A stretch of DNA of 64,000 nucleotides from Kiritimatiellia bacterium. Its GTDB lineage: Bacteria > Verrucomicrobiota > Kiritimatiellia > RFP12 > UBA1067. Both the position numbers and the translations under genes were made by a program. The notes under the pieces were generated by a model. It did no database searches. It was not told the DNA's origin and saw only the letters and a list, made by a program, of their open reading frames with translations. The stretch lies in contig JBMNFY010000017.1 in the NCBI GenBank assembly GCA_050949565.1, forward strand, positions 1,908,442 to 1,972,441, in the 5' to 3' direction. Positions 48,001 to 63,252 of this stretch are shown piece by piece. Numbering within the stretch: position 1 is the first letter of the stretch; each line of letters starts with the position of its first letter.

Positions 48001-48618
48001 GCCACCACGCTTGCCCTCGCAGATGACTGCGTGTTCAGCGGCACGGTGACCGGCAACGGCGGCCTGATCAAGAGCGGCGCGGGCGTATTCACCGTTACCG
48101 GCGTCGGCGACGCCACCGGTGCGCTGACCGTCAGCGGCGGTGCGTGCGGTGTGGCCGAAGGCGGACGCATCACCACCGGCCCGGTCAATGTGCTGGCAGG
48201 TGCGACACTCTTCGGCCACGGCCAGATGGGCGGTTCGGTCAGCGTGGCCAGCAACGCTTGGTTACAGGCAGGCACCGCCGCCGTGTGCGGCACGCTGGCG
48301 GTGGGAGGCGACCTGACACTCGCGCCCGGCGCCAACATCGCTTGGCGCTATGCCGACGGCGGCGCGTTCGATACCATCACCGTCGCGGGCACGGTGAACA
48401 TGCCGACCAACGGCCTGGTGCAGGTTTCCTCGCTCACGCCGGAACTGAAGCCGCCCGCCAAGAGACCGCTGATCGCCGCGACGACCGCGATCAACGGCCC
48501 GGACGACCTGAGCGGCTGGACCATCGAGGGTGCGAAAAACGCCAGTCTGCGCTACAGCGATGATCGCACCAAGATCTACTTCTTCACGCCGCGCGGCATG
48601 TTGTTTATCTTGGAGTAA
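42076..48618 (+). CDS. 2180-aa secreted protein with autotransporter-associated beta-strand repeats and a PA14 domain
   Basis: Signal peptide; repeated L.K.G.G.L.L units; GLMGYYY..WRGVI..GTYTFGVQCDDG PA14 motif; no C-terminal beta-barrel visible. Confidence 0.85.
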   Translation: MMMTSRVVRAALCGLLFSLVFGVAEGFAAPPLRWNGPAGGVWDAATPNWLDAGDNAVAWIPGAEAVFEGAGGLIEIAADVSATNLTFTGNGYTLLGAGRLYVEGVLTAATATTNSIVADLCTAGGLTKSGAGALALARCAGLVSVQGGSLLAAGSLFVDAEIAVAAGASLITLGEPDSGANLIVNGSFETPALSSGGWSYSVPSGWTVVYPNYVGRQNTKSVAGYNNPWNAAGTSPDGDQMMILQYGGTAAQTVTVPADGLYSIAFSYLMRSDNRETQVYLTLDGIPFATFLNRSPQTAPGRFVSGALWLTAGSHTLGIGGEHGWGDRSTMVDLVCLAAPSSAQPCRALGGDSVLKVVDAANVVMEHTGATPIAYVAINGTAASGTFNASHVSGVFSGSGSLACATPANIYTWSGVGSWSDATHWADGVAPVAGGGRDLLIRFPSATGAASANDLAGEFLARGLAASGIAADGVVTLSGGTVVLTNSSSGAAPKISLQAPGTWTVTAPVEARHTLTLDVAGQLTFQENPLGVASNGTFYKTGSGTVTLPTFTNRVASAIVYDGAIQTPQLPSSLTVNLFSQRGRAAALCLTQGGLTFGNTINLLGSGTPIFATRCGGTTLTCSNWTYGYGDTALFDVGVGDTLSLQQMLLINNSRGYSATALVKAGPGTLEIRSAGADTDKNRAYRGRTTLRNGTLVLTEDDWGTLANWSNPFNGRTYAGTGGSLGYNLLTNAVLIGDSGTAPSDALALIAAGDGRWIGHDIEVANAGASVTLGMTAGSAMFAGTLTLHRNIAFSGPADGILTLNSVCLAPDFTGTFAPAFSGLAALRIEGDFPSTASLALRGRALRFATGIVRDQTLASLALGDPDAPAALDVDFGAGVNDILRVTATDGLTLSNTVVNLFYAGTGQPFAEPGTYTLFTYQGTLDGDAALLSVGNPQDGASYAFANDTANRRVTLTITGTSGGIAAVWIHPEGGAWAVGANWDGGTAPNGAGLVPLFGLAITNHATIDTGAGYTVGGLTFNNAAYGYTLGGSGGLTFADAGDPSTVSVSAGAHTLNTALNAPDGLNVTTADDAQLALGPDATVAAALTLAQGTLELQGNATLDGAVDLADATMLRARATTNAAIGTLSGASSSVVALTGDAPALTINQAADATFAGSFTGDANATLDKLGAGALHLSHPYSPFAGKVSADAGTLALHAFVTPASVQVPASGALAINTPTMNGLMGYYYSVAPNTNAFWTLAGMESHFAAMVPDLVFPSGASGERFDFGVGSTYTFPVPYHNGGSRAHHFEVVWRGVITLPENGTYTFGVQCDDGVLLAIDGRQVLSRNYYSSAWIEETITLDAGRHDIVLGYFQLTGGGGIRLRVRCPSQGTAQLVPSSWLAPYAQASRLSGNGALSLAAPDSMWRTAQAGGFETWRGILSGVSGSLFAKSATGHFSLSSSGAPNAFAGGLDVQGGILALDAHEQVDDASRLNVCQGATLALAATETVGALSGNGTLAIGGHVYMIPFIGDEDCGISTDSTYTHLLDFPLDTYKPTVNGVLFDNQGGRSGTLPGGAWNDSPNDATRSGIDSLLWDFAYGSTNFTFHLEGLTEGQAYDLRLYFRNFANNPRRLTFTFTAGTRVVGSINHNPDSVSRSIVGCRYVVDASKSITVNVISHETAHTCHLYGLSNEALGGMNAAKLTVAPVVGQNATFGGSVVGLGELTVAGAGTQRFSGASTLATPLTVTAGTAALEPGASVLAGVAVDADGTLAIPAGDVTLGGLTGTGVLDLQGGGIYPTNTAPYFVTFTNDAGCGISPTKVYTHAIDFGGNGAPTIVNGVSFTRTNAPSGVINGYGWVNAPPSTHGGDRASSVGLGNDNGVFHLLYGMNYSLPSGQTFKLTGLTPGKWYEVRLYNRTWDPTCNRTQTLIFDPDGAGPISHSVTYDFDVPDAPPNYLGYRYLAATGELSITITRTVGDSYHLYAFTNEESSDGTPGATTLALADDCVFSGTVTGNGGLIKSGAGVFTVTGVGDATGALTVSGGACGVAEGGRITTGPVNVLAGATLFGHGQMGGSVSVASNAWLQAGTAAVCGTLAVGGDLTLAPGANIAWRYADGGAFDTITVAGTVNMPTNGLVQVSSLTPELKPPAKRPLIAATTAINGPDDLSGWTIEGAKNASLRYSDDRTKIYFFTPRGMLFILE

Positions 48619-48624
48619 ACTTGT

Positions 48625-51420
48625 TCATTTTGCGGTAGTCGCCGGCGGAATCGGAACGGAGACGAGCCACTCGGGGTGCTCCCGCACGCCCTCGGCCTCT
48701 TGAATCGGCCAGGTCGCGCGGGCGGCATCCGCGTACGGCCCGATCCGTTCGAACGGGATCGGTTCGAAGCCTAGGCGCAAGGCCGGCGAGTCGGGCTTGA
48801 GCCGGAAATCGCCTTTAGCGGCATCCACGAAAAGTGGATCGGCCACGAGCGATGCGGTGTCGGCACCCGCCATCTGCCATGCTTCCCACTCGGTAGCGGG
48901 CTGTATCTCTTCCAAGCGTAGGTCGCTGATTTCGACCGCCCCTTGGGCCGACTTAAATTCGAACTGCAGCGAGAGCGCCGTCACCCGCTCGTCGTAGTCG
49001 GCCTCGCCGGGTTTCGGCAGATAAAAGGAGGTCTCGCAGGGGTAGGCCACCGATGCAGTGCTAACATCCGACATGTCGTAGCGCCGCAAGAAATGACGCG
49101 CACCGAAGGCCTTCCACAGCCCTTTGTTCTCACATACAAAGCGCGCGATCAGGGCACCGGTCGCCGCTTCGTGGCGCAACTGGAACGAGAGCCGATAGTG
49201 CTTGCCGGGGGCCAGTTCAAACGGCGCGGAACGGATGCAGGTGTTTTTGATGTAGCGCTGTTCGGCGTTGAACGCACCCGGCAACCGCAACGTACACTTG
49301 CCATCCTTCTCCAGCACCTCGGCCTTCAGGTCCGGTAGCGTTTTGTGGTACCAGAACCAGTCGGCCGCTACCGTACGGTTGGGGTCTTTCTCCAACTCCT
49401 CCGGTGTCAGGCGGCGCGTGAAAGCGACGTTCGGAATCGCTGCGGTCAGATCGGCCAGCGCCTGCTTCACACCCTGTCGGCCTGTCTTGATCGGTACGCT
49501 ACCGCCGTTCCAAACGAGGTTCGAGTTGATGATGTTGTATTCGAGATTCACGCCGTTCTCGCGCACGTAGGTGGAGTTCGGCTGATTCGGGTAGTAGAAG
49601 ATGTTGCGCGTGATACGATTGCCGCGCATGACGGTGCCGTCCGGTAAAAACGGATCCCTCGGCGACACATGCATGCCGCGCATCTCGGCCCACGCCGGAT
49701 TGGTCATCAGCCGTTCGTAGTCCTTGATTGATGGCGGCTGGCGGTCGCGCAGAAACACCCCCTGCGGCGAATTGTTCCACGTTTGCAGCGAGAGTTGATG
49801 CGTCTTGCCTTCGGGACCTGCGTTATGCGCGAAAATGTTGTTGTAGATGTGGCTTTCGCGCGCGTTGTGCAGGTGCATCGCACCAACTTGACAGCGCTCG
49901 ACGACGTTGCCGTATACGTCGTTGCCGCAGCCGCTCTCGTCCAAGTAGATGCCCCAGGCGAAAACGAAAAACTTACCGTGGTTGTTGAAACCGATGCTGT
50001 CGGTGCAGTGGTTGTAGCGGATCGTCTGCCAGCCGCCGCACCAGCCGCCGGTGTAGGTGCAGCCGGTGTCTTCCATTTCCAGGTTGCAGTGACGGATGCG
50101 GTTATACTCCAGCGTGTTGAGTGCGCCGCCGTGAAAGATGCCACAGCGCGGCATATCGTGGATCAGGTTATGCGCAACGCGGATACCGACGCCGCCGAGC
50201 ATCACGCCGATCCCGTGCCGGTTGAATTGACCGACGTGGTGGATGTAGCAGTTGACAACTTCATGCTCGCAGCGCTCCATCTTCAGCTTGTCGCCGCCGT
50301 GTACCGAAACGCCGTGCCCGCCGATGTTCCAGATGTCGCAACCGCGCACCGCGCAGGCGCGCCCCTTATTGAATGCCACCGCTGAGCCGTGGAAGTAGCC
50401 CAGATCATGGATCAAGCACGCTTCGACGAGGGCATGTTCGCACTCGGTAAAGCGCAACGCATGTTGCTCGGCGCAGGTCAGCTCAAGTCCCCGGACGCGC
50501 ACATGGTGCGTCTGGTGGAAGGTCAAGATGTCATTGACGGTCGGCACGGTCACCGTGTCGCGCGCGAGGTCCGCGCCCGTCGGCGGGATCAAGTAGAGCT
50601 TCTGGTTCGCGACATCTTGCCACCACTCGCCGGGTGCGTCCAACTCCTCCCGCAACCCCATCAGGCAGAAGCGGTCCTCGGGGCGCGCGGCGTACTGCAT
50701 CTTGTTGTGCAGGGTGAAGGTGCGCGTCGCCGGATCATACGCCTTGATCCGCTCGATACGGTTCCACCAGTTGTAGCGCGGGAAGATGCACAACTCGCCC
50801 TCCTGCGGGTTCGACCATGTGCGCGCGTCTTGTGCCCGCAACACCACGATATCGGTACGTTCGCCCTCGATATCCTGATACATCGGCGGGCGTTTGCCGT
50901 CAACGTATGCCCAGCCGCCTGAATACGGCAGCGCGGGATCTTCATTCGGATAACGCGCCCACGTCAGGCGACGGCCGTTCAGGTAGAGTTGTCGGAACTG
51001 AGCCTTCAGGTTCAGCGGTGCGAGATCCGTCACAAACACATCGCGTCCGTTGAACGTGCCGCGCGTCCAGCCGGTCACCACCGTACCGCCCGCCAGCACG
51101 GCCCGTGCATCGGGCGCGGCAGGATCGCGTCGCGCCGCGATGGTCAGCGGTGCCGCCGCTGTTCCCGCATCCTGCGCGGTGAAGGCAACCGTTCGCGTCA
51201 CGCGGTGGATGCCCGGATGCAGCCAGATCGTGATGGCCGCATTGGGCTCGGCCTGTCGTGCAGCCCGTGCGAGGTCACGCGCCTTTTCCAACGTCTGGAC
51301 CGGTGCCGCCTCGCTGCCGACATGGCTATCGGCCCCCGACGGCGCTACGTGGATATCCGCAGCTCCAGCAATCCACGCACTCGCCACAATTCCCGCCGCG
51401 AATCCTATAACACGCATCAT
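48625..51420 (-). CDS. Right-handed parallel beta-helix protein (putative carbohydrate-active enzyme)
   Basis: [39 protein letters not shown] and DPLFVD..GDFRL motifs. Confidence 0.85.
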
Positions 51421-51606
51421 CTCGTTTCCCCCTTGTTTTTCAACCGGACAGCAACCGTCCAGCAGATGACATCACGGTAGACGAGTAGCCCTGCAAAGTC
51501 AACGCTTTGCGCTTGCAATCTCATCCGGGGCTGTTTACAGTTCGCGGCGTCGGTTATGGGTGTGTGAGAACAGTCTGAATCTCAAGCGAAAACAAGGAGA
51601 TTGAGC

Positions 51607-52221
51607 ATGAACGTCCAAGTCATTTTTTACAGCATGTACGGTCACGTTTGGCAGATGGCCGAGGCGATGGCGGAAGGCGCCGGCGAGGTGCAGGGTGCCA
51701 AGGTCTCGTTGTGGCAGGTCGAGGAGTTGGTTTCGGAAGAGTCGCTGGCGGCCAGCGGTGCCTTGGAAGCGCGCGCCCAGTTCGCGCATATTCCGGTAGC
51801 GCGGGTGGCCCAACTCGAAGAGGCGGATGTGATCCTGTTCGGCGCGCCGACGCGTTACGGCATGATGGCCGCGCAGATGAAGCAGTTCATCGATCAGACC
51901 GGCGGCCTGTGGGCGCGTGGCGTTCTGGTCGGCAAACTGGGCGGTGTCTTCGGTTCGACCAACAGCCAGCACTGCGGTCACGAGGCGACGCTGCTGAGTT
52001 TCCACACGGTACTGTTCGGTCTCGGCATGGTGGTGGTGGGCGTGCCGCCCACGGCACCCGGATTGCATGTGGGCGACGCGATCAGCGGCGGCACGCCCTA
52101 CGGCGCCACGACCATTGCCGGTTCGGACGGTTCACGACAGCCCTCGCCGATCGAGCTTGAGACGGCCCGCCTGCAAGGGCGTCATGCGGCGACGATCGGC
52201 ATGCGCCTTTTCGCGCGTTGA
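51607..52221 (+). CDS. wrbA: NAD(P)H:quinone oxidoreductase WrbA
   Basis: FYSMYGHV, GAPTRYG, FIDQTGGLW and GGTPYGA motifs; RBS AAGGAG. Confidence 0.93.
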   Translation: MNVQVIFYSMYGHVWQMAEAMAEGAGEVQGAKVSLWQVEELVSEESLAASGALEARAQFAHIPVARVAQLEEADVILFGAPTRYGMMAAQMKQFIDQTGGLWARGVLVGKLGGVFGSTNSQHCGHEATLLSFHTVLFGLGMVVVGVPPTAPGLHVGDAISGGTPYGATTIAGSDGSRQPSPIELETARLQGRHAATIGMRLFAR

Positions 52222-52233
52222 CGTCAATCTGTC

Positions 52234-52740
52234 ATGTGTGACGGTGAGTTATACGATTCCGCGTCCCGCCCTTCCGCGCTTGATGCGGAGACCGCGCATG
52301 CCTTGCGCACCTATCTCGCCGGATTCGGCGTGCCGCCGGATGCGCCGCACGCGCAGGTATGCGAGCCACCTGTTGGATTGAGCGATTACCTCGCCCGCGC
52401 CGACGTTTCGTTTTCGCGTCGCCTGCTTCAACTCATCCGCGCCAGCGGACTCAGCGAGGTCGAGGTTTACAAGCGGGCGCATGTGGATCGTAAGTTGTTT
52501 TCGAAGATCCGCAGCGACCCCGCCTATCAACCCAAGAAGCAAACGGTGATCGCTTTCGCACTCGCGCTACGCTTGACGCCTGACCAGACCGAGGTGCTGC
52601 TCGCCTCGGCTGGGTTTGCGCTCTCGACCAGTGCGCCCTTCGATCTGATCGTGCGGTTTTTTATAGAGCGCGGCCAATACGATCCCTTGCGCATCAACGA
52701 CGCGCTCTACGCCTTCAACCAGCCGCTGCTCCTGGTGTAA
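52234..52740 (+). CDS. Conserved HTH-like hypothetical protein
   Basis: VYKRAHVDRKLFSKIRS..PKK.T..A.AL.L..LL..AGFALS pattern. Confidence 0.7.
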   Translation: MCDGELYDSASRPSALDAETAHALRTYLAGFGVPPDAPHAQVCEPPVGLSDYLARADVSFSRRLLQLIRASGLSEVEVYKRAHVDRKLFSKIRSDPAYQPKKQTVIAFALALRLTPDQTEVLLASAGFALSTSAPFDLIVRFFIERGQYDPLRINDALYAFNQPLLLV

Positions 52741-52765
52741 GGCTCCGTGCGAGGCGTGGAGCCTT

Positions 52766-52850
52766 GGTTTCAGGGTTTCAGGGTTTCAGGGTTTCAGGGT
52801 TCCAGGGTTCCAGGGTTTCAGGGTTTCAGGGTTCCAGGGTTTCAGGGTTT
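52766..52850. repeat. Octamer tandem repeat (GGTTYCAG) x10.6
   Basis: Read directly; followed by TTACTTM-like heptamers to ~52907. Confidence 0.95.
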
Positions 52851-52907
52851 GGCGTGGTTGGGGGAGAGTTCTCTCTTACTTCTTACTTATTACTTATTAC
52901 CTCTTAC

Positions 52908-53190
52908 CCTAAAAAGAGCAGTTGAGCATGCAGATTTTGAGCAAAGCCCCGTAAACATTGGCTTCCGTTGAGATTCGCGCCGCACCTATTTGGTGCAGAA
53001 CGCAATTTCTGATTGGAACCACGGAACACACTAAACATACGGAAACAGAGCCATACCTTTCCGTGTGTTCGGTGTGTTCCGTGGTTAAACAATCGATCCC
53101 GATAGCGATCCCGATCCCGATTTGGATGAAACCATGAAACCTTGAAACTAGAAACCAAAGAGAGTTGAAGGTTCAACTGCTCTTTTTAGG
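52908..53190. mobile_element. 283-bp non-autonomous MITE-like element
   Basis: Perfect 18-bp inverted repeats CCTAAAAAGAGCAGTTGA / TCAACTGCTCTTTTTAGG, with CTTAC directly on both flanks. Confidence 0.75.
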
Positions 53191-53312
53191 CTTACCTAAA
53201 AATGTCGCTTGGCAAGCGACATATCAAGCCTCCCTGTGTGTTAAGGTGACGCTGTTTTCATGACCGGATCATGAAACGCACACGAACACAACCAACACCG
53301 AGGAGGTTTGAC

Positions 53313-53987
53313 ATGAACAACACTGCAACACTCACACCGACTGCACGTCCCGTCACCGACGCCGCGCGCGCTTATCGTCCGCGCCTCTCGTTCTTTCACG
53401 CCAACAGCAAGGGCACCGGCAGCGCAGCGCGCTTTGAATTGGTGCCGGCCACTGGCGAACGCGACGGTGCGATTTTCATGACACTCGCGCAGCAGAAGAG
53501 CGTGGCCAGCGGCTCGGTCGAACAGGGCAACCGCCGGTACGCCACGTTCGACTGGCAGAACCGGATCACGGTCAAGCTCAACTTCACAGACCTGAGCCAG
53601 TTGCTACTGGTCCTGAAGGGTGTCACCGCCACCATCGCTGACGGCAAGGGCCTCTACCACGATACCCGCGCAGCGACCACGCTCATCAATCTGACGCGCC
53701 AGACCGAGCCTTACGCCGGCTACGCGTTGGATGTCTCGCGCCGTGCCAAGAGCACGCCCGATGCGTCCGCCCGCGTGCGCATCTTCTTCAACGGCGTGGA
53801 AGCGTTCGGGCTCAGCATGGTCCTTGAGCAGGCATTGAGCGTGGTGGCGTTCGGCGTTCCGCGCGGACCATCGGCTTTCGGCGCGTCTCCGTTCGGCAGC
53901 GACCAGTCCGTGGACGACCTGTCCACGATGGACCTCTCCAGTATGGACCCGCTCGGTGAGGATGAGGAGGAATCCGCGCCGTTCTGA
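53313..53987 (+). CDS. Hypothetical protein, Whirly-like ssDNA-binding candidate with acidic ..PF tail
   Basis: RBS GAGGAGG; FDW..RITVKL..TDL and YHD motifs; tail GEDEEESAPF. Confidence 0.65.
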   Translation: MNNTATLTPTARPVTDAARAYRPRLSFFHANSKGTGSAARFELVPATGERDGAIFMTLAQQKSVASGSVEQGNRRYATFDWQNRITVKLNFTDLSQLLLVLKGVTATIADGKGLYHDTRAATTLINLTRQTEPYAGYALDVSRRAKSTPDASARVRIFFNGVEAFGLSMVLEQALSVVAFGVPRGPSAFGASPFGSDQSVDDLSTMDLSSMDPLGEDEEESAPF

Positions 53988-53989
53988 TC

Positions 53990-55417
53990 TCACCCCAGGA
54001 GTACGCGGATGGCATCGGCGGCGGTGTAGTCCGGCTTTTCCGGCGAGCAGAAACGTCCGATGTGGACCAGATCGTCGCCCAGCGTGATGATGGCCGGTTC
54101 GCGGTAACCGTCGGGCCGCACTTGCGCGAGGCCGATATTGCTGAAGAGCCCGTTGCAGATGCACTTGCGCCCGATGGTGTCCTCTTCCTTGCCGCCTTTG
54201 GCGAGGTATGCGGCCACAGTCTCAGAGGGGCAACGGTAGCCGATCGAGCCGTCCTCCTTGCGGTAGGCTTCGCGCAGATAGCCGAGATCGCAAACCCGGC
54301 GGCGGGCCGCATAAACGTCCGGTTCGGAGAGTGTGCCTTCGAGGTCTGCGACCTTGAACGGGAAGCCGGTGGACGAGGCGAGCGGATCAGTGAAAACCTT
54401 GCCCTCGCCAGCCAGCGCCCGACGGACCAGAGCGCGGCGCATCTCCGGCTCCAGGCCCGACTCTTCACAGAGCGCGAAAGGTGTGCCGACCTGCACGCCA
54501 GCGGCACCCTCTTCGAGTGCCATGCGCAGGGCCTCGGGCGATCCGTAGCCGCCGCCCAGCCAGAACGGCATGCCGATCTTGCGCATGGCCTCCAACTTGA
54601 CCACATCACGCGGGCCGTAAATCGGCTGGCCGTCGGGGGTCAGTTGTAGCGGACCGCGCGGCGGTGCATTATGACCACCGGCCGTCGGTCCTTCAACCAC
54701 AAAGCCCTCCACGCTGCCGCTGGCGCGCCGCAGCAACATGGTGGCGAGCGAGTCCGCAGAGATGATTGGCAGGAAGTCCGGACGCCGCAGGTCAGGCGGC
54801 GTGCAGCCGTCTTCAAAGAAGAGTGCCGGGTCAAAGACGCGCTGGCAGTCGGTCTCCGGGGTTGCACCTTGGATGCGGACGGTGTAGGTCACGGCTTCAT
54901 GGCGTGACAGCGCATCCAGCACGCCCGGAAACTCCACGGGGATGCCGGCGCCGACGATCATGACTGCCGCGCCGGCGAGCATCGCGCCGTAGGCGGAGGG
55001 CAGATGGGGGAACTGGATTTTCTCAAGATAGTTGATGCCGACTGGATTGGAGTGGCCCTCACGCGCGAGGAAGACTTCTACGAAGTTGGAGACGATGCAT
55101 AGTTCATCGAACCAACGGCTGTTTTTGAGCGCCGGTTTTTCGCTCGGCTTGTAGGGCTCGTCGGGCTTCTTGCCGCCTGCGATGAACAGCGTGTCCAGAA
55201 TGCGCTGCGCCATCTGCGGGAAGGGGAAATGGGCCAACGCACGGCGCATATCACCGCCGGGGTCGCCATCCTGCAAACGCCGGGCGAGCACTTGGTCAAG
55301 TCCTGTTCCAGATACGATGCCGAGCTGACCGATACGGGCGACCGCCTGTGCCAAGCGCCAATTGGAGACGCCGACGCCCATGCCGCCTTGAATGATTTTG
55401 GGGAGAGGAATCTGCAT
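53990..55417 (-). CDS. Nitronate monooxygenase / 2-nitropropane dioxygenase family flavoprotein
   Basis: IIQGGMGVGVS, VGAGIP, EGPTAGGH and GVQVGT motifs. Confidence 0.9.
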   Translation of the reverse strand: MQIPLPKIIQGGMGVGVSNWRLAQAVARIGQLGIVSGTGLDQVLARRLQDGDPGGDMRRALAHFPFPQMAQRILDTLFIAGGKKPDEPYKPSEKPALKNSRWFDELCIVSNFVEVFLAREGHSNPVGINYLEKIQFPHLPSAYGAMLAGAAVMIVGAGIPVEFPGVLDALSRHEAVTYTVRIQGATPETDCQRVFDPALFFEDGCTPPDLRRPDFLPIISADSLATMLLRRASGSVEGFVVEGPTAGGHNAPPRGPLQLTPDGQPIYGPRDVVKLEAMRKIGMPFWLGGGYGSPEALRMALEEGAAGVQVGTPFALCEESGLEPEMRRALVRRALAGEGKVFTDPLASSTGFPFKVADLEGTLSEPDVYAARRRVCDLGYLREAYRKEDGSIGYRCPSETVAAYLAKGGKEEDTIGRKCICNGLFSNIGLAQVRPDGYREPAIITLGDDLVHIGRFCSPEKPDYTAADAIRVLLG

Positions 55418-55610
55418 AAAAGAACGTATAAATGAGTGAAACTTAAAAACGCAAGTCCAACGGCGATACAGTATAGCGTTTGTGTGACCGGATTGGGAGT
55501 CAGAATTTTGTCAGAAATTGATCGCACTTGCGGCGGGAAGGAGTGAGGCGTATGATAAGGAAAGTTACTGAGGAGAGAAGGCGGACGGTAACGTAAGCAA
55601 GGAGGATGAA

Positions 55611-56264
55611 ATGTCGCGAGAACGCACGGATACTAAAAAAGGCGGGTGTTTGAGGAAGGTGGGTATCGGCTGCTTGACGCTGGTTATTCTGCTGGCGGTC
55701 GGCGGTGTGCTGGTTTACCGCACGGCGAGATCGACCGTCACGCGGTTGGCTGCACGATACACGGACGTCGCGCCGACAGAGTTGCCGGAATTCCAGATGG
55801 AGGAAGGAGAGAAACGCGCGTTGTTTGAACGGGTGGATGGGTTTGTCAAGGCGGTGAAAGAGGGCAAGTCGGATCAAACCTTGTCATTGTCCGCGCGTGA
55901 CATCAATGCTTTGATTCAAAATTCACCGGAGTTGGCCGGACGCCTCTTTGTGGAGATTGAGGACGAGCGTATCTGCGGTGATGTCAGCTTTCCGCTGGAT
56001 CAACTGAGCAGCCTTGATCTGCTGAAAGGCCGCTGGCTGAACGGATCCGTGGAGCTTAGCGTGAACACGGTTGCGGGGCGGCTCGTCGTGTTCATGGAGT
56101 CGCTGACGGTACGCGGGAAACCTGTGCCGGAGCAGTTGATGTCTGCGATCCGCTCAAGGAATCTGGCCGACCAAGCGTTCGGAAGCCCGAAAGCCGCGCA
56201 GATCCTACAGCGCATCGAAAAGGTGAAAGTCGAGGACGGGCGTCTAGTGATTGAGAGTGAATAG
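55611..56264 (+). CDS. Hypothetical membrane-anchored protein
   Basis: RBS AGGAGG; KKGGCL..GC followed by a transmembrane helix; candidate promoter TTGCGG-17-TATGAT at 55528-55556. Confidence 0.75.
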   Translation: MSRERTDTKKGGCLRKVGIGCLTLVILLAVGGVLVYRTARSTVTRLAARYTDVAPTELPEFQMEEGEKRALFERVDGFVKAVKEGKSDQTLSLSARDINALIQNSPELAGRLFVEIEDERICGDVSFPLDQLSSLDLLKGRWLNGSVELSVNTVAGRLVVFMESLTVRGKPVPEQLMSAIRSRNLADQAFGSPKAAQILQRIEKVKVEDGRLVIESE

Positions 56265-56378
56265 GCGGACACCGCGCGACGGAAAAACCAGACGTGGCAC
56301 GGGCATCATGCCCATGCCGTGAGGAGTTTCGGGGATCTGCCGGAAGCATCGGCAGGATCGGCAGTGCCGGAAAAGACG

Positions 56379-56414
56379 AAGCGCCGGAAGTTGATTTCCG
56401 GCGCTTGTTTTTTT
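56379..56414 (+). terminator. Intrinsic terminator between convergent genes
   Basis: AAGCGCCGGAA-loop-TTCCGGCGCTT followed by a T run. Confidence 0.7.
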
Positions 56415-56601
56415 ACTGGTAGCGGTCTCTATAGCCGCCCGGCAGGGGCATGGTGCCTTCCCATCCAGCCGGCGCGGCCCACGGCATGTCAGTTTCGTTC
56501 GGGTTGTCGACCATGCATCCGGTGAGCCCGAGCAGGGTGAGCGCCGCGAGTAGGAGACAGAGGCTACGGATCGTCAGGCTCGTCTCAGAAGAAGACGACA
56601 T
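56413..56601 (-). CDS. Small putative lipoprotein
   Basis: Hydrophobic stretch with lipobox LTGC; MPWAAPAGWEG; overlaps the stop of the upstream gene. Confidence 0.6.
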   Translation of the reverse strand: MSSSSETSLTIRSLCLLLAALTLLGLTGCMVDNPNETDMPWAAPAGWEGTMPLPGGYRDRYQ

Positions 56602-57721
56602 CGCCTTTCTCCACCGGTGCCTGCTGCCAGTCGTTCAGAATGTCAGCAACCACGAAGTTCTTGCCGCGCACGGCCTGGCGCAGTTTGATACGCGTGACGA
56701 ACTCGCCGGCGGCGCTTTGACGGCCAGTGCGGCGCACGTTCATCTCGAGCTGCGGCAGAGCATTCTGGCGCTCAGGGCCGAGCAACTCAGCAATGGCGTC
56801 GTCAGAGAGTTCAATGATCGCGAACTTCAGTTCGTCATTGGCCTCGATGATCTTGCCCTTGTCACCGGCGGTTGGAGCCGTAGCCATGCCCTGAGCCGGT
56901 GCGACGGTACCGGGACGCGAACCTTGGCCGCTCAACCTCTTCTTCAGTTCTTCGTTCTGCTCGCGCAGTTTGGCGAGATCATCGGTCAAGTTGACCTTGT
57001 CCTCGTTCAGCGTCTCGATCGTGTTCTTGGCGTCGGCGAGTTCGGCGGTGAGTTCCCGCTTCTCGGCGGTGAGCCGGGTCACGCTTGTTTCCAACGCTGT
57101 TTTTTCGGTGGTGAGGGTAGCGACCTTTTCCTTTTCGCCTTTCAGTTCCACCTTGGCGGCACGGCCGTCGGTCTTGAGCTTGTTGATCTCATCGATCGAG
57201 GCGGTGAACTGATCGCGCATCTTGGAGAGTTCGGCGCGCGTCTTATTGAGCGAGGCCTGCTGGGCCTTGGCGCGATCGAAGAGCTGGTCCATTAGCTCTT
57301 GCATGGTGCCGGGACCCTTGGTGTCGGGCTTGTTATCCACCGGGTTGAGGATATAGTTGCCTTCGTCGTCGACACGGTAGAGGCAGCGGAGCTGCAGGCG
57401 CTTTTCGGTGTTACCGAAGTCGAGCGTGGGCAGATTCTGCTGCTCCAGCTTGATCGGGTAGCCCTCCAGCATCGCCTGCTTCTCGGGGTTTGTCAGCTCA
57501 CGGTCGGAGACTTCAGAGGTGTCCTTCATCACGCTTGGCGCATCGGCCTCGGCGGGATCTTGCCCCTCAATCGTCTTCGCCACTTTGATGAACGTCTCCT
57601 CAAGTACACTGTTGCGCTTCGTCAACAGCTCCCGTTTTTCGAACAACTTGTGAGCAAAAAACAGGGACACAGCACTCAGGATCAGAATGATGATAACCAA
57701 CACACGCAGCACTTTAGCCAT
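56585..57721 (-). CDS. Membrane-anchored coiled-coil protein
   Basis: N-terminal transmembrane helix, long heptad region and small beta-rich C-terminal domain. Confidence 0.8.
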   Translation of the reverse strand: MAKVLRVLVIIILILSAVSLFFAHKLFEKRELLTKRNSVLEETFIKVAKTIEGQDPAEADAPSVMKDTSEVSDRELTNPEKQAMLEGYPIKLEQQNLPTLDFGNTEKRLQLRCLYRVDDEGNYILNPVDNKPDTKGPGTMQELMDQLFDRAKAQQASLNKTRAELSKMRDQFTASIDEINKLKTDGRAAKVELKGEKEKVATLTTEKTALETSVTRLTAEKRELTAELADAKNTIETLNEDKVNLTDDLAKLREQNEELKKRLSGQGSRPGTVAPAQGMATAPTAGDKGKIIEANDELKFAIIELSDDAIAELLGPERQNALPQLEMNVRRTGRQSAAGEFVTRIKLRQAVRGKNFVVADILNDWQQAPVEKGDVVFF

Positions 57722-57840
57722 TTCAAAACCTCAAGATTAACTGGTGACACGTTTACGCGTATGGTCAAAAGGTAATTCAAACCGGGCCGAACTGCAACAA
57801 CAAACTGTGAGAAGATGTGATTTTTTTTTGTGGTTTGAAA

Positions 57841-57869
57841 TTGACCTTGGCGCACAGCCTCCGTACAAT
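57841..57869 (+). promoter_or_regulatory. Sigma70-like promoter
   Basis: TTGACC-17 nt-TACAAT, 11 nt upstream of ATG 57881. Confidence 0.6.
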
Positions 57870-57880
57870 TGCTCCTCACT

Positions 57881-60800
57881 ATGACTAAGAAGCGTTCCAA
57901 GATTTTTGGCTGCTGGCTTGTTGGGCTCCTGGGTGTGGGTATTCCTCTGTGCGGGGCGTTCGCGCAGGCTGACGCTGAAAAGGCGTTGGAAGACGAACTG
58001 AAGTACATCGAGCTCTTGCAGCAGATGCGCATGCCGGATATCGCCAACGAGGTGATAGCCGAGACCAAGGCGCGTTTTCCTGAGGCGGCCGCCAAGCTCA
58101 GGGTCAGCGAACTCAAAGGCTTGCTCTCTCAGGGGCGTTTTGACGACGTCCAGAAGGAGATCGACGCGATCCCCGATAAAAACGGGGTTGAATTCTGGGC
58201 GTTGACGCTGGCCAAGGCCGATGCCTACTATGCCTTCCAGAGGTATGACGAGGCGGATAAACTCTATCTGGGCTTCTTCAAAAAGGTTGAAAAGCCGGCC
58301 GGTGCGCTGGTCACCTTTTATCGTGACGCGGCCTACAGGTACGTCCAGATGTTGCTCTATCTGGGCAGAGATAAAGAGGCCCTCGTGGCTTTCCGCAACC
58401 TCTTCAAGGTGCCGCTGGAGGAGGCTGCCGAGCGGCAGGTACGCGCCGACATGGCCGAATTGATGCTCAAGCTCCTGCCTGATGTCGAGAAGAAGGAGGA
58501 GAAGGACAAGATGATCAAGGAGGCCGAGGCCAATGTCGACAAGCTGCTCTGGAAGCAGGACATCTGGTTCGGCAAGGCGATCGTGATGAAGGCGCACCTC
58601 CTCCTGATGCGCGGCGACCTCACGGGAACCCGGGATCTGGTCGAGAATTACATGCCGCAACTCAGGACCATCCATGATTCTCTGCGCGATCAGGATCCCG
58701 ATGGCTCGCAAGGCTTGCTGCGCATGAGTCCGATGCCGCAGTGCCGTTACTTGCTGGCGGTGTTGCTGATGGACGAAGCGATGGCCGAGGCCAAGAAGGA
58801 CAAGCCCGATGAAGACCGTATCAAAGACCTGCTGATCGGTGAAAGGGATGCCCAGTCCGGCAAGCGCAAGCAGAACGGTGCCTTCAACCACTTTATCAAC
58901 GTGTTTGTCCGCTTCCCGGAGAGCCAGTGGGCCTCCGAGGCCGGCGAACGTTCCGAGATCCTGCGCAAGTTCATTAAGACCCGCTACAATGCGGACCTGC
59001 GCACGCCGGTGACCGAAGAACAGATGCGCAGGGTGCGTGAAATGCAGTTCGCGGGGGCGCGGCTCATCTTCAGCCGGAACCAGTTCAAGGAGGCGATCGA
59101 CAAGTACCTGCTGGTGCTCAACCAGTTTCCGGAGTCCCCGGAGTCGGTGTCGGCCTTGGGTGACCTCGCGATCAGCTACATTGAGACCTCTGGCGAGGAC
59201 GCAGAAGCGGCGCTGATGGCTGAGACCGTCATCGGCCACCTCTCTGAGCGTTTCGCGTGCCACCCCAAGCTTATGAAAGAAGCGGGCGACCAGATGCGCC
59301 GCATCGCTGAGCACTACGGCGATCTGCGCATGGAAGACAAGCGACGTCAGACTTACGCGCTCTTCTTCCGCGATTACCCGGACCATTACGCCGCAGGCCA
59401 GCTCGTGATGAGTTTCGCTGAGCGCGAGTTTTCCGCCAAGAACTATGTCGGCGCGATGACGTATTACCGGCAGATCAGCGAGACTTACACCAATTCGCCC
59501 CACTATTTCGATGCCATCAGCCGCATGGCGCAGATCTACAAAGAAGAGGAACAGGCGACCAACGAGATCCAGACACTGGAGTTTTATGTCGAGCGTCTCG
59601 GCGCACGCGAGCGCCCCGACCATACGCTGATCGTCGGCACCTTCCGCTTGGCCGACGCCTACCGCGAGTACGGCATTAGCCTGCTCCATGGCGGCGACAC
59701 GAATGAAACCGAGACCGTCGACGCCGCGCAGAGAGCGGAGGAGCGGACGCAGGGCGTGAACATGTTGAGCAGAGCGGTCATGAACTTCAACAACGTCGCC
59801 AAGATGTTGGATGAGAATGCGGCCGCTTACCAGCGGAACGATGAAGAGAAGCAGCGTAACGAGCAGATGCGCGAGTTGGCCGTCTTCACCAAAGCGGTCT
59901 GCCTGACGCAGATCAACCAGCCCGAGGATAAGTTGCCGCTGTTGCGCAAGCTGGCCATCAACGCCTATGAGGATTACGTCAAGCGTTTCCCCAAGGGACA
60001 ATACGCCCCCAGAGCGCAGTTGCAGATCGGTACGCTTTACACTATTTTGCAGGACACCGCCAACGCGCAGGCAGCCTTTGAGAAGCTCAGCAAAAACTAT
60101 CCGGAGTCCGCCGAGGCTAAGAACTCGGTGCCGATGCAGGCCGCTGCTTTGATCGAGATCGGGTTACGCGGCGAGGGTGTTGCCAAGTACCGCGAGATGT
60201 TCGCCGCTGGCGGCACCTATACGGAAGGCCAGTTCATGGCCGCAGCGGATGCCTTGGAGAAGAGCCGGGAGTACGACATGGCGGTTCAAGCGTACGACAA
60301 GGTGTTGTCCACCGCCAAGGATATTAGTTTGATCGCCAATGCCCGGTTGGGACGCACCCGCTCGCTGATCGGCCTCAAGAAGTATGGTGAGGCGCACAAG
60401 ATGCTGGAAGCCTTTATCAAAGATGAAAAGCTCTCTAAGCTCGCACTGGTGGTCGACGCCAACCTGTTGCTGGTTGACGTGGCCAGCGAGGAGGGCAAGG
60501 TTGAAAAGGATGACAGGGAGCGCGCTCGTCTCTTCAATGCGGCGGTGGATGCGCTCAAGATGGTCAGGGGCTACCGCACCACGCCGGAAGAGCAGGCCGA
60601 ACTGGACCTGATGACTGGCGAGGTCCTGTTGCGCAGGTGGTCGGCTGAAAAGAAGTTGGGGTTGAACGAACAGGCGGCCGAGACGCGCGGTAAGGCGATT
60701 GTGGCCTTCCAGGGGATGATCCTGAGCATAGACCCCGGCAATCTCGCTTTGTCAAGTGTCCTCGAAAAATCCTATTTCCACTGCATCCCGCTGCTGCTGG

Positions 60801-60919: not shown

Positions 60920-60977
60920 GTCGTCCGATGAGTTGGATTATTCCCTACAAGTGACACCCCTTTCAAGGAGCAAACGT

Positions 60978-61783
60978 ATGAAGATGAGAATACAGACTGG
61001 ACTGGCCGCGTTGGCCGCGACCTTCATTGCTGCCGAGGCCGCCGCCGTGCAGGGCGTCATCACGATGCCCAACGGATCGAAGCGCGAAGGCGAGATCAAA
61101 TGGATTGCGCGTGACAAGGCGTATGGCATTGTCGAGAAGGGCCGCTCGATTGAAATGCAGTTGAAGCCAGAGGAGATCGCTGGTCTGCAGATCCCGCGGC
61201 CGCGCGAGCTTGACGCTGCAATCGAGGCGATCCGCCAGGGCAACGCCAATGCTGCGATTCCGATGTTGGAGAAGATTGCGTCCGACTACATGATGTTGCA
61301 GTGGGACAAGCCCGCCACCCGTTATCTGGCCGAGGCGCACGTGCAGGCCGGCAACGCCGACAAAGCGATTGCTGTCTGTGAGAAGGTCATCGCCGCCGAC
61401 CCCGAGGCCGCCTATCTAGGCGAGATGGCCCCGGTTTACTGGCAGGCGCTGATCAAGCGCGAGCGCCTCAGCAAGGTCGAGGAACTGCTCGGCAAGGCGA
61501 TCAAAACCGGCGACCGCCTGGCCTCGGCCAACGCGCTGATCGCGCGCGGCGACCTGATTCAGCAGGCGGGCGGCGACACCCCACGAGATCATTGCCAAGA
61601 AGGCGCTGCGCGACGGTTACCTGCGCGTGAGTCACGCTCTACCGGAGCGAGCGCGCCGCGCAGCCGGAAGCGCTGTATAAGGCGGCCAAGTGTTTTGAAA
61701 ACCTGGGGCAGACCCAGCGCGCGGATCAATTGCGGACCACCCTCAAGGGTGAGTTCGGCTCGTCGGAGTGGGCCAAGAAGTAA
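60978..61783 (+). CDS. Exported TPR protein with two apparent frameshifts (~61580 and ~61630)
   Basis: RBS AAGGAG and signal peptide. The reconstructed end KKALRDGYLRV.TLY..PEALYKAAKCFENLG..SEWAKK stops at TAA 61783. Confidence 0.7.
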
Positions 61784-63243: not shown

Positions 63244-63252
63244 GAGGAGATT

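What the first reader, a model, noticed from the sequence alone, without database searches (positions are those of the whole stretch)
53313..53987. Bacterial Whirly-like protein with an SSB-style acidic C-terminal tail
Seen: the motif order G.A.RFE..P, GAIFMTLA, FDW..RITVKL..TDL..L, YHD, G.ALDVS, I....EA..L...L..A...FG, followed by a low-complexity linker and DEEESAPF. Known: plant Whirly ssDNA-binding domains have a similar order (KGKAAL, G..LL.FAP, YDW.KKQ.F.LS.TE, FFHD, G.F.NLSV, I.I...EF..L, GW), and bacterial SSBs recruit partners through an acidic tail ending PF. Inference: a non-OB-fold ssDNA-binding hub protein, possibly relevant to the origin of Whirly proteins. The alignment was made from memory.
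Basis: inference. Interest (0 to 1): 0.7.

Follow-up and report, generated by a model that had tools for sequence, protein, structure and literature searches.

The report
Bacterial Whirly-fold protein with SSB-like tail
A bacterium of the Kiritimatiellia group encodes a protein predicted to have the four-bladed "Whirly" shape, so far described mainly in plant organelle DNA-binding proteins, and it ends in an acidic tail much like the partner-recruiting tail of ordinary bacterial single-strand DNA-binding proteins.

Summary
Window 53313-53987 (+) is a real 224-aa gene with a conserved ribosome-binding site and ATG.

- **Fold.** The core (residues ~20-183) is confidently predicted as a tandem beta-beta-beta-beta-alpha Whirly fold. 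The best solved matches are potato StWhy2 (Z 17.7), PBF-2 (Z 17.1) and trypanosome MRP1/2 (Z 15.7); the next hit scores 7.5.
- **Assembly.** A four-copy model packs through the two helices (score 0.90; best control 0.00).
- **Tail.** Residues 184-224 are disordered and acidic and end in ...DEEESAPF. The genome's canonical SSB ends in ...DDEDLPF.
- **Family membership.** Sequence links to Pfam Whirly are below threshold (14.5 bits against 23).
- **Distribution.** The family has 427 clusters. They include Kiritimatiellia chromosomes and tail-less forms on phage contigs.
- **Tail conservation.** Only 11 of 121 close homologs end in PF, and 83 of 121 end in a hydrophobic residue.
In this clade the gene is paired with an upstream XRE-type HTH gene (32 of 39 loci). 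It is preceded by a dedicated palindrome, TGTCGC-N7-GCGACA, and a leader hairpin.

Most likely it is a regulated, tetrameric auxiliary binder of single-stranded nucleic acid. The partner-hub role and any link to the origin of plant Whirly proteins remain inference.

The parts
52234..52740 (+). ORF168: a 168-aa XRE/Cro-type helix-turn-helix protein with an extra C-terminal helical part. It is the conserved upstream partner of the Whirly-like gene and the candidate regulator.
   Evidence: It lies directly upstream on the same strand in 32 of 39 related loci, whereas the other neighbours are shared by only 1-3 of 39. Pfam HTH_31 matches weakly (E 0.031, residues 60-121). The AF2 model has pLDDT 82.9 and nine helices. 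Foldseek's best hits are C.AhdI, DdrO, C.BclI, C.Esp1396I, 434 Cro and SinR, with target TM 0.7-0.83 but E only 0.05-0.3.
52766..52850 (.). Tandem array of GGTTTCAG, 10.6 copies, inside a ~450-bp insertion that the second copy of the region (contig C13) lacks.
   Evidence: Tandem Repeats Finder; pairwise alignment of the two copies.
52908..53194 (.). MITE-like ~287-bp dispersed repeat inserted between ORF168 and the Whirly-like gene. It is not part of the conserved module.
   Evidence: At least 35 near-full-length copies at 88-99% identity lie on both strands of the genome. There are ~22-bp terminal matches in inverted orientation and an inner palindrome. The element is absent from the C13 copy.
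53202..53222 (.). Palindrome P1, ATGTCGCTTGGCAAGCGACAT (core TGTCGC-N7-GCGACA): an operator-like site dedicated to this gene.
   Evidence: The strict pattern occurs upstream of the gene in 33 of 37 loci examined, and L038 has a near variant. The arms are invariant while the inner arm position covaries T..A / C..G. In the own genome the exact pattern occurs only at the two copies of this gene. One-mismatch hits are at control level, 34 against 31.
53239..53247 (+). Conserved TGnTAnnnT element (TGTTAAGGT), read as an extended -10 promoter box. This reading is inferred.
   Evidence: It is conserved in the 35-sequence upstream alignment (consensus 'gt.TG.TA.g.T'). The simple sigma-70 scan found no -35/-10 pair. 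RNA-library contigs start 3-16 nt further upstream (53223-53236), which does not fit a transcription start just after this box.
53256..53276 (+). Leader hairpin P2: TTTCATGA - CCGGA - TCATGAAA.
   Evidence: 85.7% of cells pair, against 27-54% when the partner is slid. Three pairs change on both sides, G-U pairs are used, and 0 of 500 shuffles reach the covariation score. Seven outlier loci have hairpins of different sequence at the same place (MFE -7.1 to -13.8 kcal/mol). RNAalifold on the whole 70-nt alignment predicted nothing.
53300..53306 (+). Ribosome-binding site GAGGAGG.
   Evidence: Read directly from the sequence; conserved as aGGAG in 35 upstream regions.
53313..53987 (+). Whirly-like gene, 224 aa plus stop.
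   Evidence: Homologs: 186 by the word-index search and 427 cluster representatives at E <= 1e-3.
53370..53861 (+). Whirly-fold core, residues 20-183: two beta-beta-beta-beta-alpha repeats. It is basic (pI 9.9).
   Evidence: AF2 gives 120 residues at pLDDT >= 90, with strands and helices in the order 4 beta - alpha - 4 beta - alpha. Structure matches. The tetramer interface uses helices 91-104 and 161-186. Charge.
53862..53984 (+). Disordered acidic tail, residues 184-224 (pI 4.05).
   Evidence: pLDDT 40-44; 10 D/E against 1 K/R.
53961..53984 (+). C-terminal tip DEEESAPF.
   Evidence: For comparison, the canonical SSB of the same genome ends DDEDLPF (TIGR00621 114.8 bits).

Best explanation
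The gene encodes a homotetrameric Whirly-fold protein. The basic beta-sheet 'blades' of the core most likely bind single-stranded nucleic acid, with ssDNA the first guess.

The 41-residue disordered acidic tail ends in ...SAPF. Most likely it works as in bacterial SSB and phage SSBs: it folds back on the basic core when the protein is free, and when the core is on DNA it offers its acidic, hydrophobic tip to partner proteins.

The protein is an auxiliary to the genome's canonical OB-fold SSB, not a replacement for it. In this clade its expression is set by a dedicated circuit. The adjacent XRE-type HTH protein (ORF168) is proposed to bind the palindrome TGTCGC-N7-GCGACA just upstream of a conserved -10-like box, and a conserved leader hairpin could allow feedback by the protein itself.

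The family also lives on phages as a tail-less core. The chromosomal form therefore looks like a phage-type ssDNA-binding module that acquired a tail and a regulator.

Shown: the gene, its conservation, the predicted fold, the predicted tetramer, the composition of the tail, the gene pairing, and the palindrome and hairpin. Inferred: nucleic-acid binding, the role of the tail, which protein binds the palindrome, and the direction of transfer between phage and host.
For: - **Fold.** AF2 core pLDDT is above 90. Foldseek's top ranks are all plant Whirly or MRP1/2 (E 1.5e-6 to 1.3e-5, target TM 0.58-0.73), with Pur-alpha next at about 6e-3. VIA-align gives StWhy2 Z 17.7 (rmsd 2.2 over 144 residues), PBF-2 Z 17.1 and MRP1/2 Z 15.7, then 7.5.
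- **Sequence trace.** Pfam Whirly is a weak hit on this protein (E 0.033). It hits 22 of 129 relatives at E <= 0.1, and one of 128 reaches the gathering score (25.9 bits). The 129-member profile finds only three PDB sequences at E <= 10, and all three have the Whirly fold: MRP1 at 0.017 and StWhy2 at 0.54 and 0.65. The ESM Atlas's nearest named clusters carry PF08536 in 12-17% of their members.
- **Tetramer.** Four copies of residues 15-190 score ipSAE 0.90 in all three runs, with 0.00 as the best of 3 controls. Contacts agree at 88% or more and partner pLDDT is at least 86. In the tool's calibration the mark was reached by 20 of 30 true homo-pairs and 1 of 23 single chains. The interface uses helices 91-104 and 161-186.
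- **Charge layout.** The core has pI 9.9 and the tail pI 4.05.
- **Tail tip.** It resembles the own SSB's ...DDEDLPF.
- **Regulation.** ORF168 is adjacent in 32 of 39 loci and has an HTH fold. P1 is present in 33 of 37 loci and is unique in the genome. The hairpin shows covariation.
- **Phage relatives.** Ten viral contigs carry homologs at 34-46% identity, E 3e-23 to 3e-45. Portal and capsid genes lie nearby.
[quoted passage not shown] Plant Whirlies act as SSB-type accessory factors for RecA strand exchange (10.64898/2026.10.24.761589).
Against: - No binding was tested for any ligand.
- The PF tip is a minority state. It ends 11 of 121 close homologs, and another 15 end in some other residue followed by F. 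The commonest tips are AE.E[RP]AA[I/V/L]. All 10 phage homologs lack a tail. An SSB-like hub role therefore cannot be the family's general function.
- The Pfam gathering score is not reached.
- Plant Whirly tetramers are solved structures, so the complex model may pass from memory. It also used four copies and my own alignment, which differs from the tool's calibration.
- RNA-library contigs begin at 53223-53236, upstream of the proposed -10 box. The neighbouring genes are covered at similar depth, so neither the transcription start nor expression itself is shown.
- Twenty other genomes of the class carry divergent Whirly-like genes (32-49% identity) with no ORF168 and no P1. The circuit is therefore specific to this clade.
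- Which protein binds P1 is unknown. It could be the Whirly-like protein itself.
Confidence: 0.55

Rival explanations
1. It is mainly an RNA-binding or RNA-annealing protein, like kinetoplastid MRP1/MRP2 or jumbo-phage ChmC. It would act on mRNAs, perhaps including its own leader hairpin, and the acidic disordered tail would tune RNA binding or condensation rather than recruit DNA-repair partners.
For: MRP1 is the best sequence-level PDB hit of the family profile (E 0.017), and MRP1/2 is a top structural hit (Z 15.7). ChmC combines a Whirly fold with a disordered C-terminal region that has S/D/E-rich stretches, and it prefers RNA (passages). A conserved hairpin that uses G-U pairs lies in the presumed leader.
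Against: Structural scores are slightly higher for the plant ssDNA-binding Whirlies (Z 17.7 and 17.1). The phage relatives lie among genes typical of DNA-handling or early regions (MutS_I, DUF932, DUF3560, PcfJ, GP88). The PF tip resembles the tip of DNA SSBs.
Confidence: 0.2
2. It is a domesticated phage gene that serves in phage-host conflict. It might sense or sequester phage ssDNA. Alternatively it could be a decoy whose SSB-like tip competes with the host SSB for partner proteins, kept silent by the HTH repressor until infection or stress.
For: The family is common on phage contigs, and the Atlas taxa are mostly Uroviricota. sPC4/Whirly-fold domains are proposed infection sensors in the Shedu and Menshen systems (passages). 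The two-gene module sits in variable surroundings.
Against: There is no PADLOC match for either protein. No nuclease or other effector gene is conserved beside the pair: no other neighbour family is shared by more than 5 of 30 loci. The neighbours in the window are metabolic genes.
Confidence: 0.12
3. It is itself a sequence-specific regulator, as first proposed for potato PBF-2. It would bind the melted palindrome P1 or the hairpin in single-stranded form and control its own gene or ORF168.
For: A dedicated, perfectly conserved palindrome and a hairpin lie in front of the gene. From recall, not from a call: PBF-2 binds an inverted-repeat promoter element in single-stranded form.
Against: The exact palindrome occurs nowhere else in the genome, so any regulon would consist of one gene. 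A classical HTH protein that fits a 19-21-bp dyad is encoded next door. Phage and divergent homologs lack P1.
Confidence: 0.08
4. It binds no nucleic acid. The fold serves as a protein-binding scaffold, as in the sPC4-like immunity proteins of polymorphic toxin systems.
For: The sPC4-like fold has been reported as an immunity-protein scaffold (PMC9424270, passage).
Against: No toxin gene is conserved nearby. The core is basic (pI 9.9). The close structural matches are the nucleic-acid binders, not CdiI-type proteins.
Confidence: 0.05

Closest known systems
Plant Whirly proteins (StWhy1/PBF-2 p24, StWhy2, AtWHY1-3; Pfam PF08536)
   Same: Both have the tandem beta-beta-beta-beta-alpha fold (Z 17.7 and 17.1). 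The predicted homotetramer is built on the helices. Conserved motifs fall in the same order: FDW...VKL matches YDW...FALS, GY.L.V matches GYFISLSV, and EA..L matches AEF..M. Both have a basic nucleic-acid-binding type of core.
   Different: This protein is bacterial and has no transit peptide. It falls below the Pfam gathering score (14.5 bits against 23) and shares only 12-17% identity with the solved structures. It has NSKGTGSAA where higher plants have KGKAAL. The KGKAAL motif is quoted from passages of PMC9070903. It carries an SSB-like acidic PF tail and has its own HTH and palindrome circuit.
[quoted passage not shown]
   Same: They share the Whirly fold (Z 15.7; Foldseek E 3.5e-6). MRP1 is the best sequence-profile hit in the PDB (E 0.017). 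They also form a tetramer.
   Different: MRP is a heterotetramer of two paralogs that anneals RNAs in mitochondria. Here only one gene type is present: the second copy lies on a 96-99% identical contig. An acidic PF tail is also present.
Bacterial OB-fold SSB (TIGR00621 / PF00436)
   Same: Both have a basic DNA-binding core, a disordered linker and an acidic tip that ends in PF. The own SSB ends ...DDEDLPF and this protein ends ...DEEESAPF. Both are predicted or known to be tetramers.
   Different: The fold is entirely different: there is no OB fold and no PF00436 hit. The genome keeps a canonical SSB. Within the Whirly-like family the tip is not conserved.
Jumbo-phage ChmC (PhiPA3 gp61)
   Same: ChmC is a phage-encoded tetramer with a Whirly-type fold and a disordered C-terminal region that includes acidic stretches (passages of 10.1101/2023.09.22.559000).
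   Different: ChmC has beta-beta-beta-alpha repeats, prefers RNA and forms condensates. No sequence link was seen here: 0 of 129 family members match any PHROG, and tblastn against the phage records found nothing. The phage members of the present family have no tail.
Deinococcus DdrO repressor with the non-OB SSB DdrB (analogy recalled from memory, apart from the DdrO fold hit)
   Same: An XRE-type repressor with a palindromic operator controls an alternative, non-OB ssDNA-binding protein. DdrO is among the best fold matches of ORF168.
   Different: There is no sequence relationship to DdrB. No IrrE-type protease partner was looked for. The analogy is functional only and was not tested.

Membership tests
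Whirly (Pfam PF08536; plant p24/WHY) | Fold of two beta-beta-beta-beta-alpha repeats forming the 'whirligig' blade | tested here: met
   The AF2 model has core pLDDT above 90 and the matching order of elements. StWhy2 gives Z 17.7 (rmsd 2.2 over 144 residues) and PBF-2 gives Z 17.1. Foldseek E is 1.5e-6 to 6e-6. This rests on a predicted structure, not a solved one.
Whirly (Pfam PF08536; plant p24/WHY) | Score at or above Pfam's gathering threshold (23 bits) | tested here: not met
   This protein scores 14.5 bits, E 0.033. Of 128 diverse relatives, one reaches the threshold (P0205, 25.9 bits) and four more score 19-20.7 bits.
Whirly (Pfam PF08536; plant p24/WHY) | Homotetramer held together by the helices | tested here: met
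   This is a prediction only. ipSAE is 0.90 in all three runs against 0.00 for the best of 3 controls. Contacts agree at 88% or more and pLDDT is at least 86. In calibration 20 of 30 true pairs and 1 of 23 single chains reached the mark. The interface residues are 91-104 and 161-186. The pass may come from memory of solved Whirly tetramers.
Whirly (Pfam PF08536; plant p24/WHY) | KGKAAL motif of higher-plant Whirlies (ssDNA binding and higher-order assembly) | tested here: inconclusive
   The protein has N31-S-K-G-T-G-S-A-A39, and K33, G36 and S37 are invariant in 25 close homologs. No significant alignment of this segment to a plant Whirly was obtained. According to passages of PMC9070903, algal Whirly-like proteins also lack the motif.
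Whirly (Pfam PF08536; plant p24/WHY) | Binds single-stranded DNA or RNA | not testable with these tools
   Only indirect evidence is available: the core has pI 9.9.
Bacterial SSB (TIGR00621 / PF00436) | OB-fold DNA-binding domain | tested here: not met
   There is no PF00436 or NCBIfam SSB hit, and the fold is Whirly. The canonical SSB is encoded elsewhere in the genome.
Bacterial SSB (TIGR00621 / PF00436) | Disordered linker plus an acidic C-terminal tip ending in Pro-Phe | tested here: met
   Residues 184-224 have pLDDT 40-61 and 10 D/E against 1 K/R, and the protein ends DEEESAPF. The own SSB ends DDEDLPF. That the tip is an SSB hallmark (E. coli ...DDDIPF) is recalled, not taken from a call.
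Bacterial SSB (TIGR00621 / PF00436) | The tip is conserved across orthologs and binds partner proteins | tested here: not met
   For conservation: PF ends 11 of 121 close homologs and 8 of 150 representatives, and none of the 10 phage homologs has a tail. Partner binding could not be tested.
MRP1/MRP2 (kinetoplastid) | Heterotetramer of two paralogous Whirly-fold subunits | tested here: not met
   The genome holds one gene type. The second hit lies on contig C13, which is colinear with the window at 96-99% identity over 20 kb.
XRE/Cro-type HTH regulators (for ORF168) | Five-helix HTH DNA-binding domain | tested here: inconclusive
   Foldseek gives probability 1.00 and target TM 0.7-0.83 to C.AhdI, DdrO, 434 Cro and SinR, but E only 0.05-0.3. 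Pfam HTH_31 scores 15 bits against a cut-off of 27. There are no NCBIfam or PDB sequence hits.

The most novel reading that the evidence does not exclude
Whirly proteins are not a plant invention. A large prokaryotic family, mainly phage-borne, of tandem-repeat tetrameric Whirly proteins is the pool from which the organellar Whirly proteins of plants, and perhaps the MRP proteins of kinetoplastid mitochondria, were recruited. This would parallel the phage-derived organellar RNA polymerase and the Twinkle primase-helicase. In Kiritimatiellia one such phage gene was domesticated and given an SSB-type acidic PF tip and an XRE repressor. It now serves as a conditionally expressed second SSB with a non-OB fold that plugs into the SSB interactome.
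Probability: 0.2. Interest if true: 0.85.

Novelty: new variant of a known kind. Interest (0 to 1): 0.62.

Why it matters
Reviews and recent papers call Whirly proteins plant-specific (passages of PMC9070903; passages of 10.64898/2026.10.24.761589). This family shows the full two-repeat Whirly architecture, with a predicted tetramer, in bacteria and phages: 427 clusters at 50% identity.

- It gives plant biologists a prokaryotic outgroup for asking where Whirly proteins came from.
- It gives microbiologists a candidate second class of ssDNA-binding protein that is not OB-fold.
- The member studied here adds a tail that converges on the SSB tip. That offers a natural experiment on whether the acidic PF tip is a portable 'plug' for the SSB partner network.
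- The compact set of HTH gene, palindrome, leader hairpin and gene is a small circuit that can be tested directly.

Within the sPC4/Whirly superfamily, bacterial members described so far in the papers I read are half-units in defence sensors or phage ChmC.

Tried and rejected
**Sequence searches that found nothing or only spurious hits**
- phmmer of the protein and hmmsearch of the 25-member profile against PDB sequences gave only coatomer beta appendage (E 0.027-0.25), PlyP35 and uS5. I treat these as spurious short matches to the FDW.N..TV.N..DL segment.
- The Pfam Coatomer_b_Cpla hit (E 0.012; 16 bits against a cut-off of 32.7) is rejected for the same reason.
- NCBIfam: no family for the protein or for ORF168.
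- PADLOC: none for either protein.
- PHROGs: 0 of 129 family members.
- tblastn against 50,697 phage records: no match.
- IMG/VR scanned with the close-clade alignment A1: none. Only the distant sub-alignments A4 and A5 found viral loci.
- The search for related loci with the 129-member alignment failed because no stretch was conserved enough, so A1 was used instead.
- The listing of cluster members on 10 distant representatives returned no names, so the taxa of the short forms stay unknown apart from the viral contigs.
- The search of earlier findings by sequence: nothing.

**RNA and promoter analyses**
- Rfam around the gene gave only two sub-threshold miRNA-precursor matches to the palindrome inside the MITE.
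- RNAalifold on the 70-nt leader alignment predicted no structure. The hairpin was then tested with a structure I named myself, which leans in its favour.
- The sigma-70 scan found no promoter.

**Expression**
- RNA-library contigs of 4 runs from 4 studies cover the whole gene, but the neighbouring genes are covered at similar depth. DNA carry-over cannot be excluded, so I claim neither expression nor a transcription start.

**Phyletic link of ORF168**
- The whole-genome search found an ORF168-like match in 17 of 301 genomes, and only 12 first-look candidates per genome were scored.
- Direct fetching of 20 loci showed that the genomes without ORF168 carry divergent Whirly-like genes of 32-49% identity. 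The pairing therefore belongs to one clade, not to the whole family.
- The script stopped with an error after 13 of 20 loci, and several ORFs ran off the fetched stretch. I draw no tail counts from it.

- A direct profile-profile comparison or tree with plant Whirly sequences could not be made, because no tool gave me plant sequences.

**Literature**
- Searches for a described bacterial Whirly protein found none in the library held. Subscription journals and InterPro or Pfam member lists were not searchable.
Full report
**The gene.** Window 53313-53987 (+) is an open frame of 224 codons. GAGGAGG lies at 53300-53306, six bases before the ATG. In an alignment of 35 upstream regions from related genomes the ribosome-binding site and the ATG are conserved, while the first codons after it drift.

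**Family.** A word-index search found 186 relatives, of which the best 120 are listed. These share 61-100% identity and come mostly from metagenome bins that their depositors label Kiritimatiellia. All the names given are 'hypothetical protein'. A full HMMER pass over 1.84 billion cluster representatives found 427 clusters at E <= 1e-3, 226 at <= 1e-10 and 24 at <= 1e-30. Most distant members are 150-180 aa and end a few residues after a conserved ...AFG[V/I]P. Columns conserved at 90% or more across 129 diverse members are H29, G36, A38, Q61, F79, L89, V100, G103, G113, E163, F180 and G181.

**Fold.** AlphaFold2 with a 25-sequence alignment gave mean pLDDT 77.9. There are 120 residues at 90 or more, and only residues 1-13, 189-207 and 213-222 fall below 50. 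The elements run four strands, helix, four strands, long helix.
- Foldseek against the PDB found 23 matches at E <= 1e-3. The listed top ranks are all potato PBF-2, Arabidopsis WHY1/2/3, potato StWhy2 or T. brucei MRP1/2 (E 1.5e-6 to 1.3e-5, target TM 0.58-0.73). Pur-alpha follows at about 6e-3.
- An independent all-against-representatives alignment gave StWhy2 Z 17.7 (rmsd 2.2 A over 144 residues), PBF-2 Z 17.1 and MRP1/2 Z 15.7, then Pur-alpha at 7.5.

**Sequence-level link.**
- Pfam Whirly hits this protein at E 0.033, 14.5 bits, below the 23-bit cut-off.
- Among 129 family members, 22 hit it at E <= 0.1.
- Among the 128 others, 5 hit at E <= 0.002 and only one (25.9 bits) passes the cut-off.
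- The 129-member profile finds just three PDB sequences at E <= 10, and all three have the Whirly fold: MRP1 at 0.017 and StWhy2 at 0.54 and 0.65.
- The ESM Atlas's nearest named clusters carry PF08536 in 12-17% of members and are mostly of phage origin. This is a lead, not a test.

I therefore file the family as a remote relative that shares the Whirly fold, not as a curated member of PF08536.

**Assembly.** Four copies of residues 15-190, supplied with alignment A1, scored ipSAE 0.90 in each of three runs against 0.00 for the best of three controls. Contacts agree at 88% or more and partner pLDDT is at least 86. In the tool's calibration the mark was reached by 20 of 30 proteins solved as homo-pairs and 1 of 23 solved as single chains. 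The interface is made by helix 91-104, the C-terminal helix 161-186 and the strand edges 21-25 and 41-48. This is how Whirly tetramers are described. Because such tetramers are solved, the pass may reflect likeness rather than independent evidence. The job, with four copies and my own alignment, also differs from the calibration.

**Tail.** The core (residues 20-183) has 19 K/R against 13 D/E, pI 9.9. The tail (184-224) has 1 K/R against 10 D/E, pI 4.05. The protein ends DEEESAPF. The genome has a canonical SSB (TIGR00621, 114.8 bits against a cut-off of 53.95) that ends DDEDLPF. So the resemblance to an SSB tip is real for this protein.

It is not a family trait.
- In 121 close homologs, 11 end in PF and 15 in another residue followed by F.
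- The last residue is F in 26, I in 26, V in 15, L in 12, M in 4 and G in 18. Common tips are AE.E[R/P]AA[I/V/L].
- Among 150 distant representatives, 8 end in PF and 6 in another residue plus F.
- All 10 homologs on viral contigs stop within about 10 residues of the core.

An acidic tail with a hydrophobic end is typical of the close clade. The SSB-like PF tip is a minority state that recurs in several sub-clusters.

**Distribution.**
- With the broad profile, 30 of 301 sampled genomes of the phylum have a match at E <= 1e-5. All 30 are in the window's own class, including 12 of 12 in its family. None was found in the other families sampled, for example 0 of 48 in f30 and 0 of 152 in 30 further families.
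- A scan of GTDB species genomes with patterns from the close clade returned 39 loci, all from Kiritimatiellia-type bins.
- P0001 also matches 10 IMG/VR contigs directly at 34-46% identity, E 3e-23 to 3e-45.
- Pfam on 97 neighbouring ORFs of those contigs named 11. These include three portal proteins, a capsid protein, GP88, DUF3560, DUF932, MutS_I, PcfJ, UPF0102 and RhuM.

The family is therefore shared between phages and one bacterial class.

In 32 of 39 related loci the gene directly upstream on the same strand is a homolog of window ORF 52234-52740 ('ORF168'). The other neighbours in the window are shared by only a few loci: flavodoxin-like 3 of 39, nitronate monooxygenase-like 2 of 39, beta-helix protein 1 of 39. 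No other neighbour family is shared by more than 5 of 30 loci.

ORF168 is all-helical (AF2 pLDDT 82.9). Its middle part matches XRE/Cro-type HTH domains (C.AhdI, DdrO, C.BclI, C.Esp1396I, 434 Cro, SinR) at probability 1.00 and target TM 0.7-0.83, though E is only 0.05-0.3. Pfam HTH_31 is a weak hit.

Between the two genes lie three conserved elements.
- **P1 (53202-53222).** The palindrome has the core TGTCGC-N7-GCGACA. The strict pattern is present in 33 of 37 loci examined, and L038 has a near variant. The arms are invariant and the inner position covaries. In the own genome it occurs only at the two copies of this gene, and one-mismatch hits equal the reversed-pattern control, 34 against 31.
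- **A conserved TGnTAnnnT (53239-53247)** that reads as an extended -10 box.
- **Hairpin P2 (53256-53276).** It shows 85.7% paired cells against 27-54% for slid partners, three pairs with changes on both sides, use of G-U pairs, and 0 of 500 shuffles reaching the covariation score. Seven loci break the alignment but each carries a different hairpin at the same spot.

I read this as a repressor or activator site for ORF168 plus a leader hairpin. Both readings are inferences. RNA-library contigs start at 53223-53236, upstream of the proposed -10 box, which does not fit my promoter reading.

**Limits of the pairing.** Twenty other genomes of the class that match the broad profile carry genes only 32-49% identical to this one, with neither ORF168 nor P1 beside them. 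Of the 30 genomes with a Whirly-like gene, 6 show the adjacent pair by coordinates: G000, G083, G197, G227, G257 and G293. The 32-of-39 figure comes from a scan seeded with close-clade patterns, so it describes that clade only.

**Expression.** Thirteen runs labelled RNA hold part of the stretch. In four of them, from four studies of biogas fermenters, anaerobic digesters and activated sludge, contigs cover the whole gene. The flanking genes are covered at similar depth, so DNA carry-over cannot be excluded.

**What is known.** I read passages only of each paper cited here.
- Reviews call Whirlies plant-specific and note algal Whirly-like proteins that lack KGKAAL (PMC9070903).
- A 2026 preprint again calls them plant-specific SSBs and shows that they stimulate RecA strand exchange (10.64898/2026.10.24.761589).
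- The Whirly/sPC4 fold has been recognised in jumbo-phage ChmC (10.1101/2023.09.22.559000), in Shedu N-terminal sensor domains (10.1101/2023.08.10.552793), in Menshen sensors (PMC12065111) and in immunity proteins (PMC9424270).
- Six searches found no description of a stand-alone bacterial two-repeat Whirly protein or of one with an SSB-like tail. The library lacks most subscription journals, and supplements were not consulted.

**Verdict.** The hub function and the evolutionary claim remain hypotheses. The feature is a new variant of a known kind: a prokaryotic and phage Whirly-fold family whose Kiritimatiellia branch gained an acidic tail, here with an SSB-type PF tip, and a dedicated HTH-palindrome-hairpin control region.

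Noticed in passing
window 52908-53194: A MITE-like ~287-bp element lies here. The genome holds at least 35 near-full copies at 88-99% identity on both strands, with ~22-bp inverted ends and an inner palindrome. This copy sits between ORF168 and the Whirly-like gene and is absent from the second copy of the region.
   Followed up: partly
window 52766-52850 (also 52874-52907, 53059-53083, 53094-53121 and 53126-53157): Five short tandem arrays lie in the same intergenic insertion. The largest is GGTTTCAG x 10.6. It creates spurious 'GFQGFRVSGFQG' ORFs.
   Followed up: no
window 44001-64000 against G000:C13:28783-48396: Contig C13 is colinear, in reverse orientation, with the last 20 kb of the window at 96-99% identity. 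So the 'second copy' of the gene is probably a co-assembled strain variant or a large recent duplication, not a paralog.
   Followed up: partly
window 52265 -> 54003 (run X1): One RNA-library contig joins 52265 to 54003 with 16 unrelated letters between them, skipping ORF168 and the Whirly-like gene. The shorter side is only 30 letters, so this may be an artefact or a relative that lacks the two-gene module.
   Followed up: no
L046, L048, L052 and L044 (IMG/VR contigs): The phage homologs lie next to GP88, MutS_I, DUF932, DUF3560 and PcfJ-like genes. From recall, this set is typical of early or leading regions of mobile DNA, where SSB genes often sit.
   Followed up: no
G047, G086, G119, G190 and G042 (other genomes of the phylum): The ORF168 core (about residues 45-167) also occurs without a Whirly-like neighbour. 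In several cases it lies inside much longer open frames of 230-449 aa, so it is a wider HTH-plus-helical domain family.
   Followed up: no
L080-L099 (20 genomes of the same class): A divergent set of Whirly-like genes (32-49% identity to this one) lacks both ORF168 and the P1 palindrome. Their contexts were not examined.
   Followed up: partly
protein residues 68-105: The FDWQNRITVKLNFTDL segment gives recurrent weak hits to the appendage platform of eukaryotic coatomer beta (E 0.012-0.25). I judged these spurious, but they appear in three separate searches.
   Followed up: no
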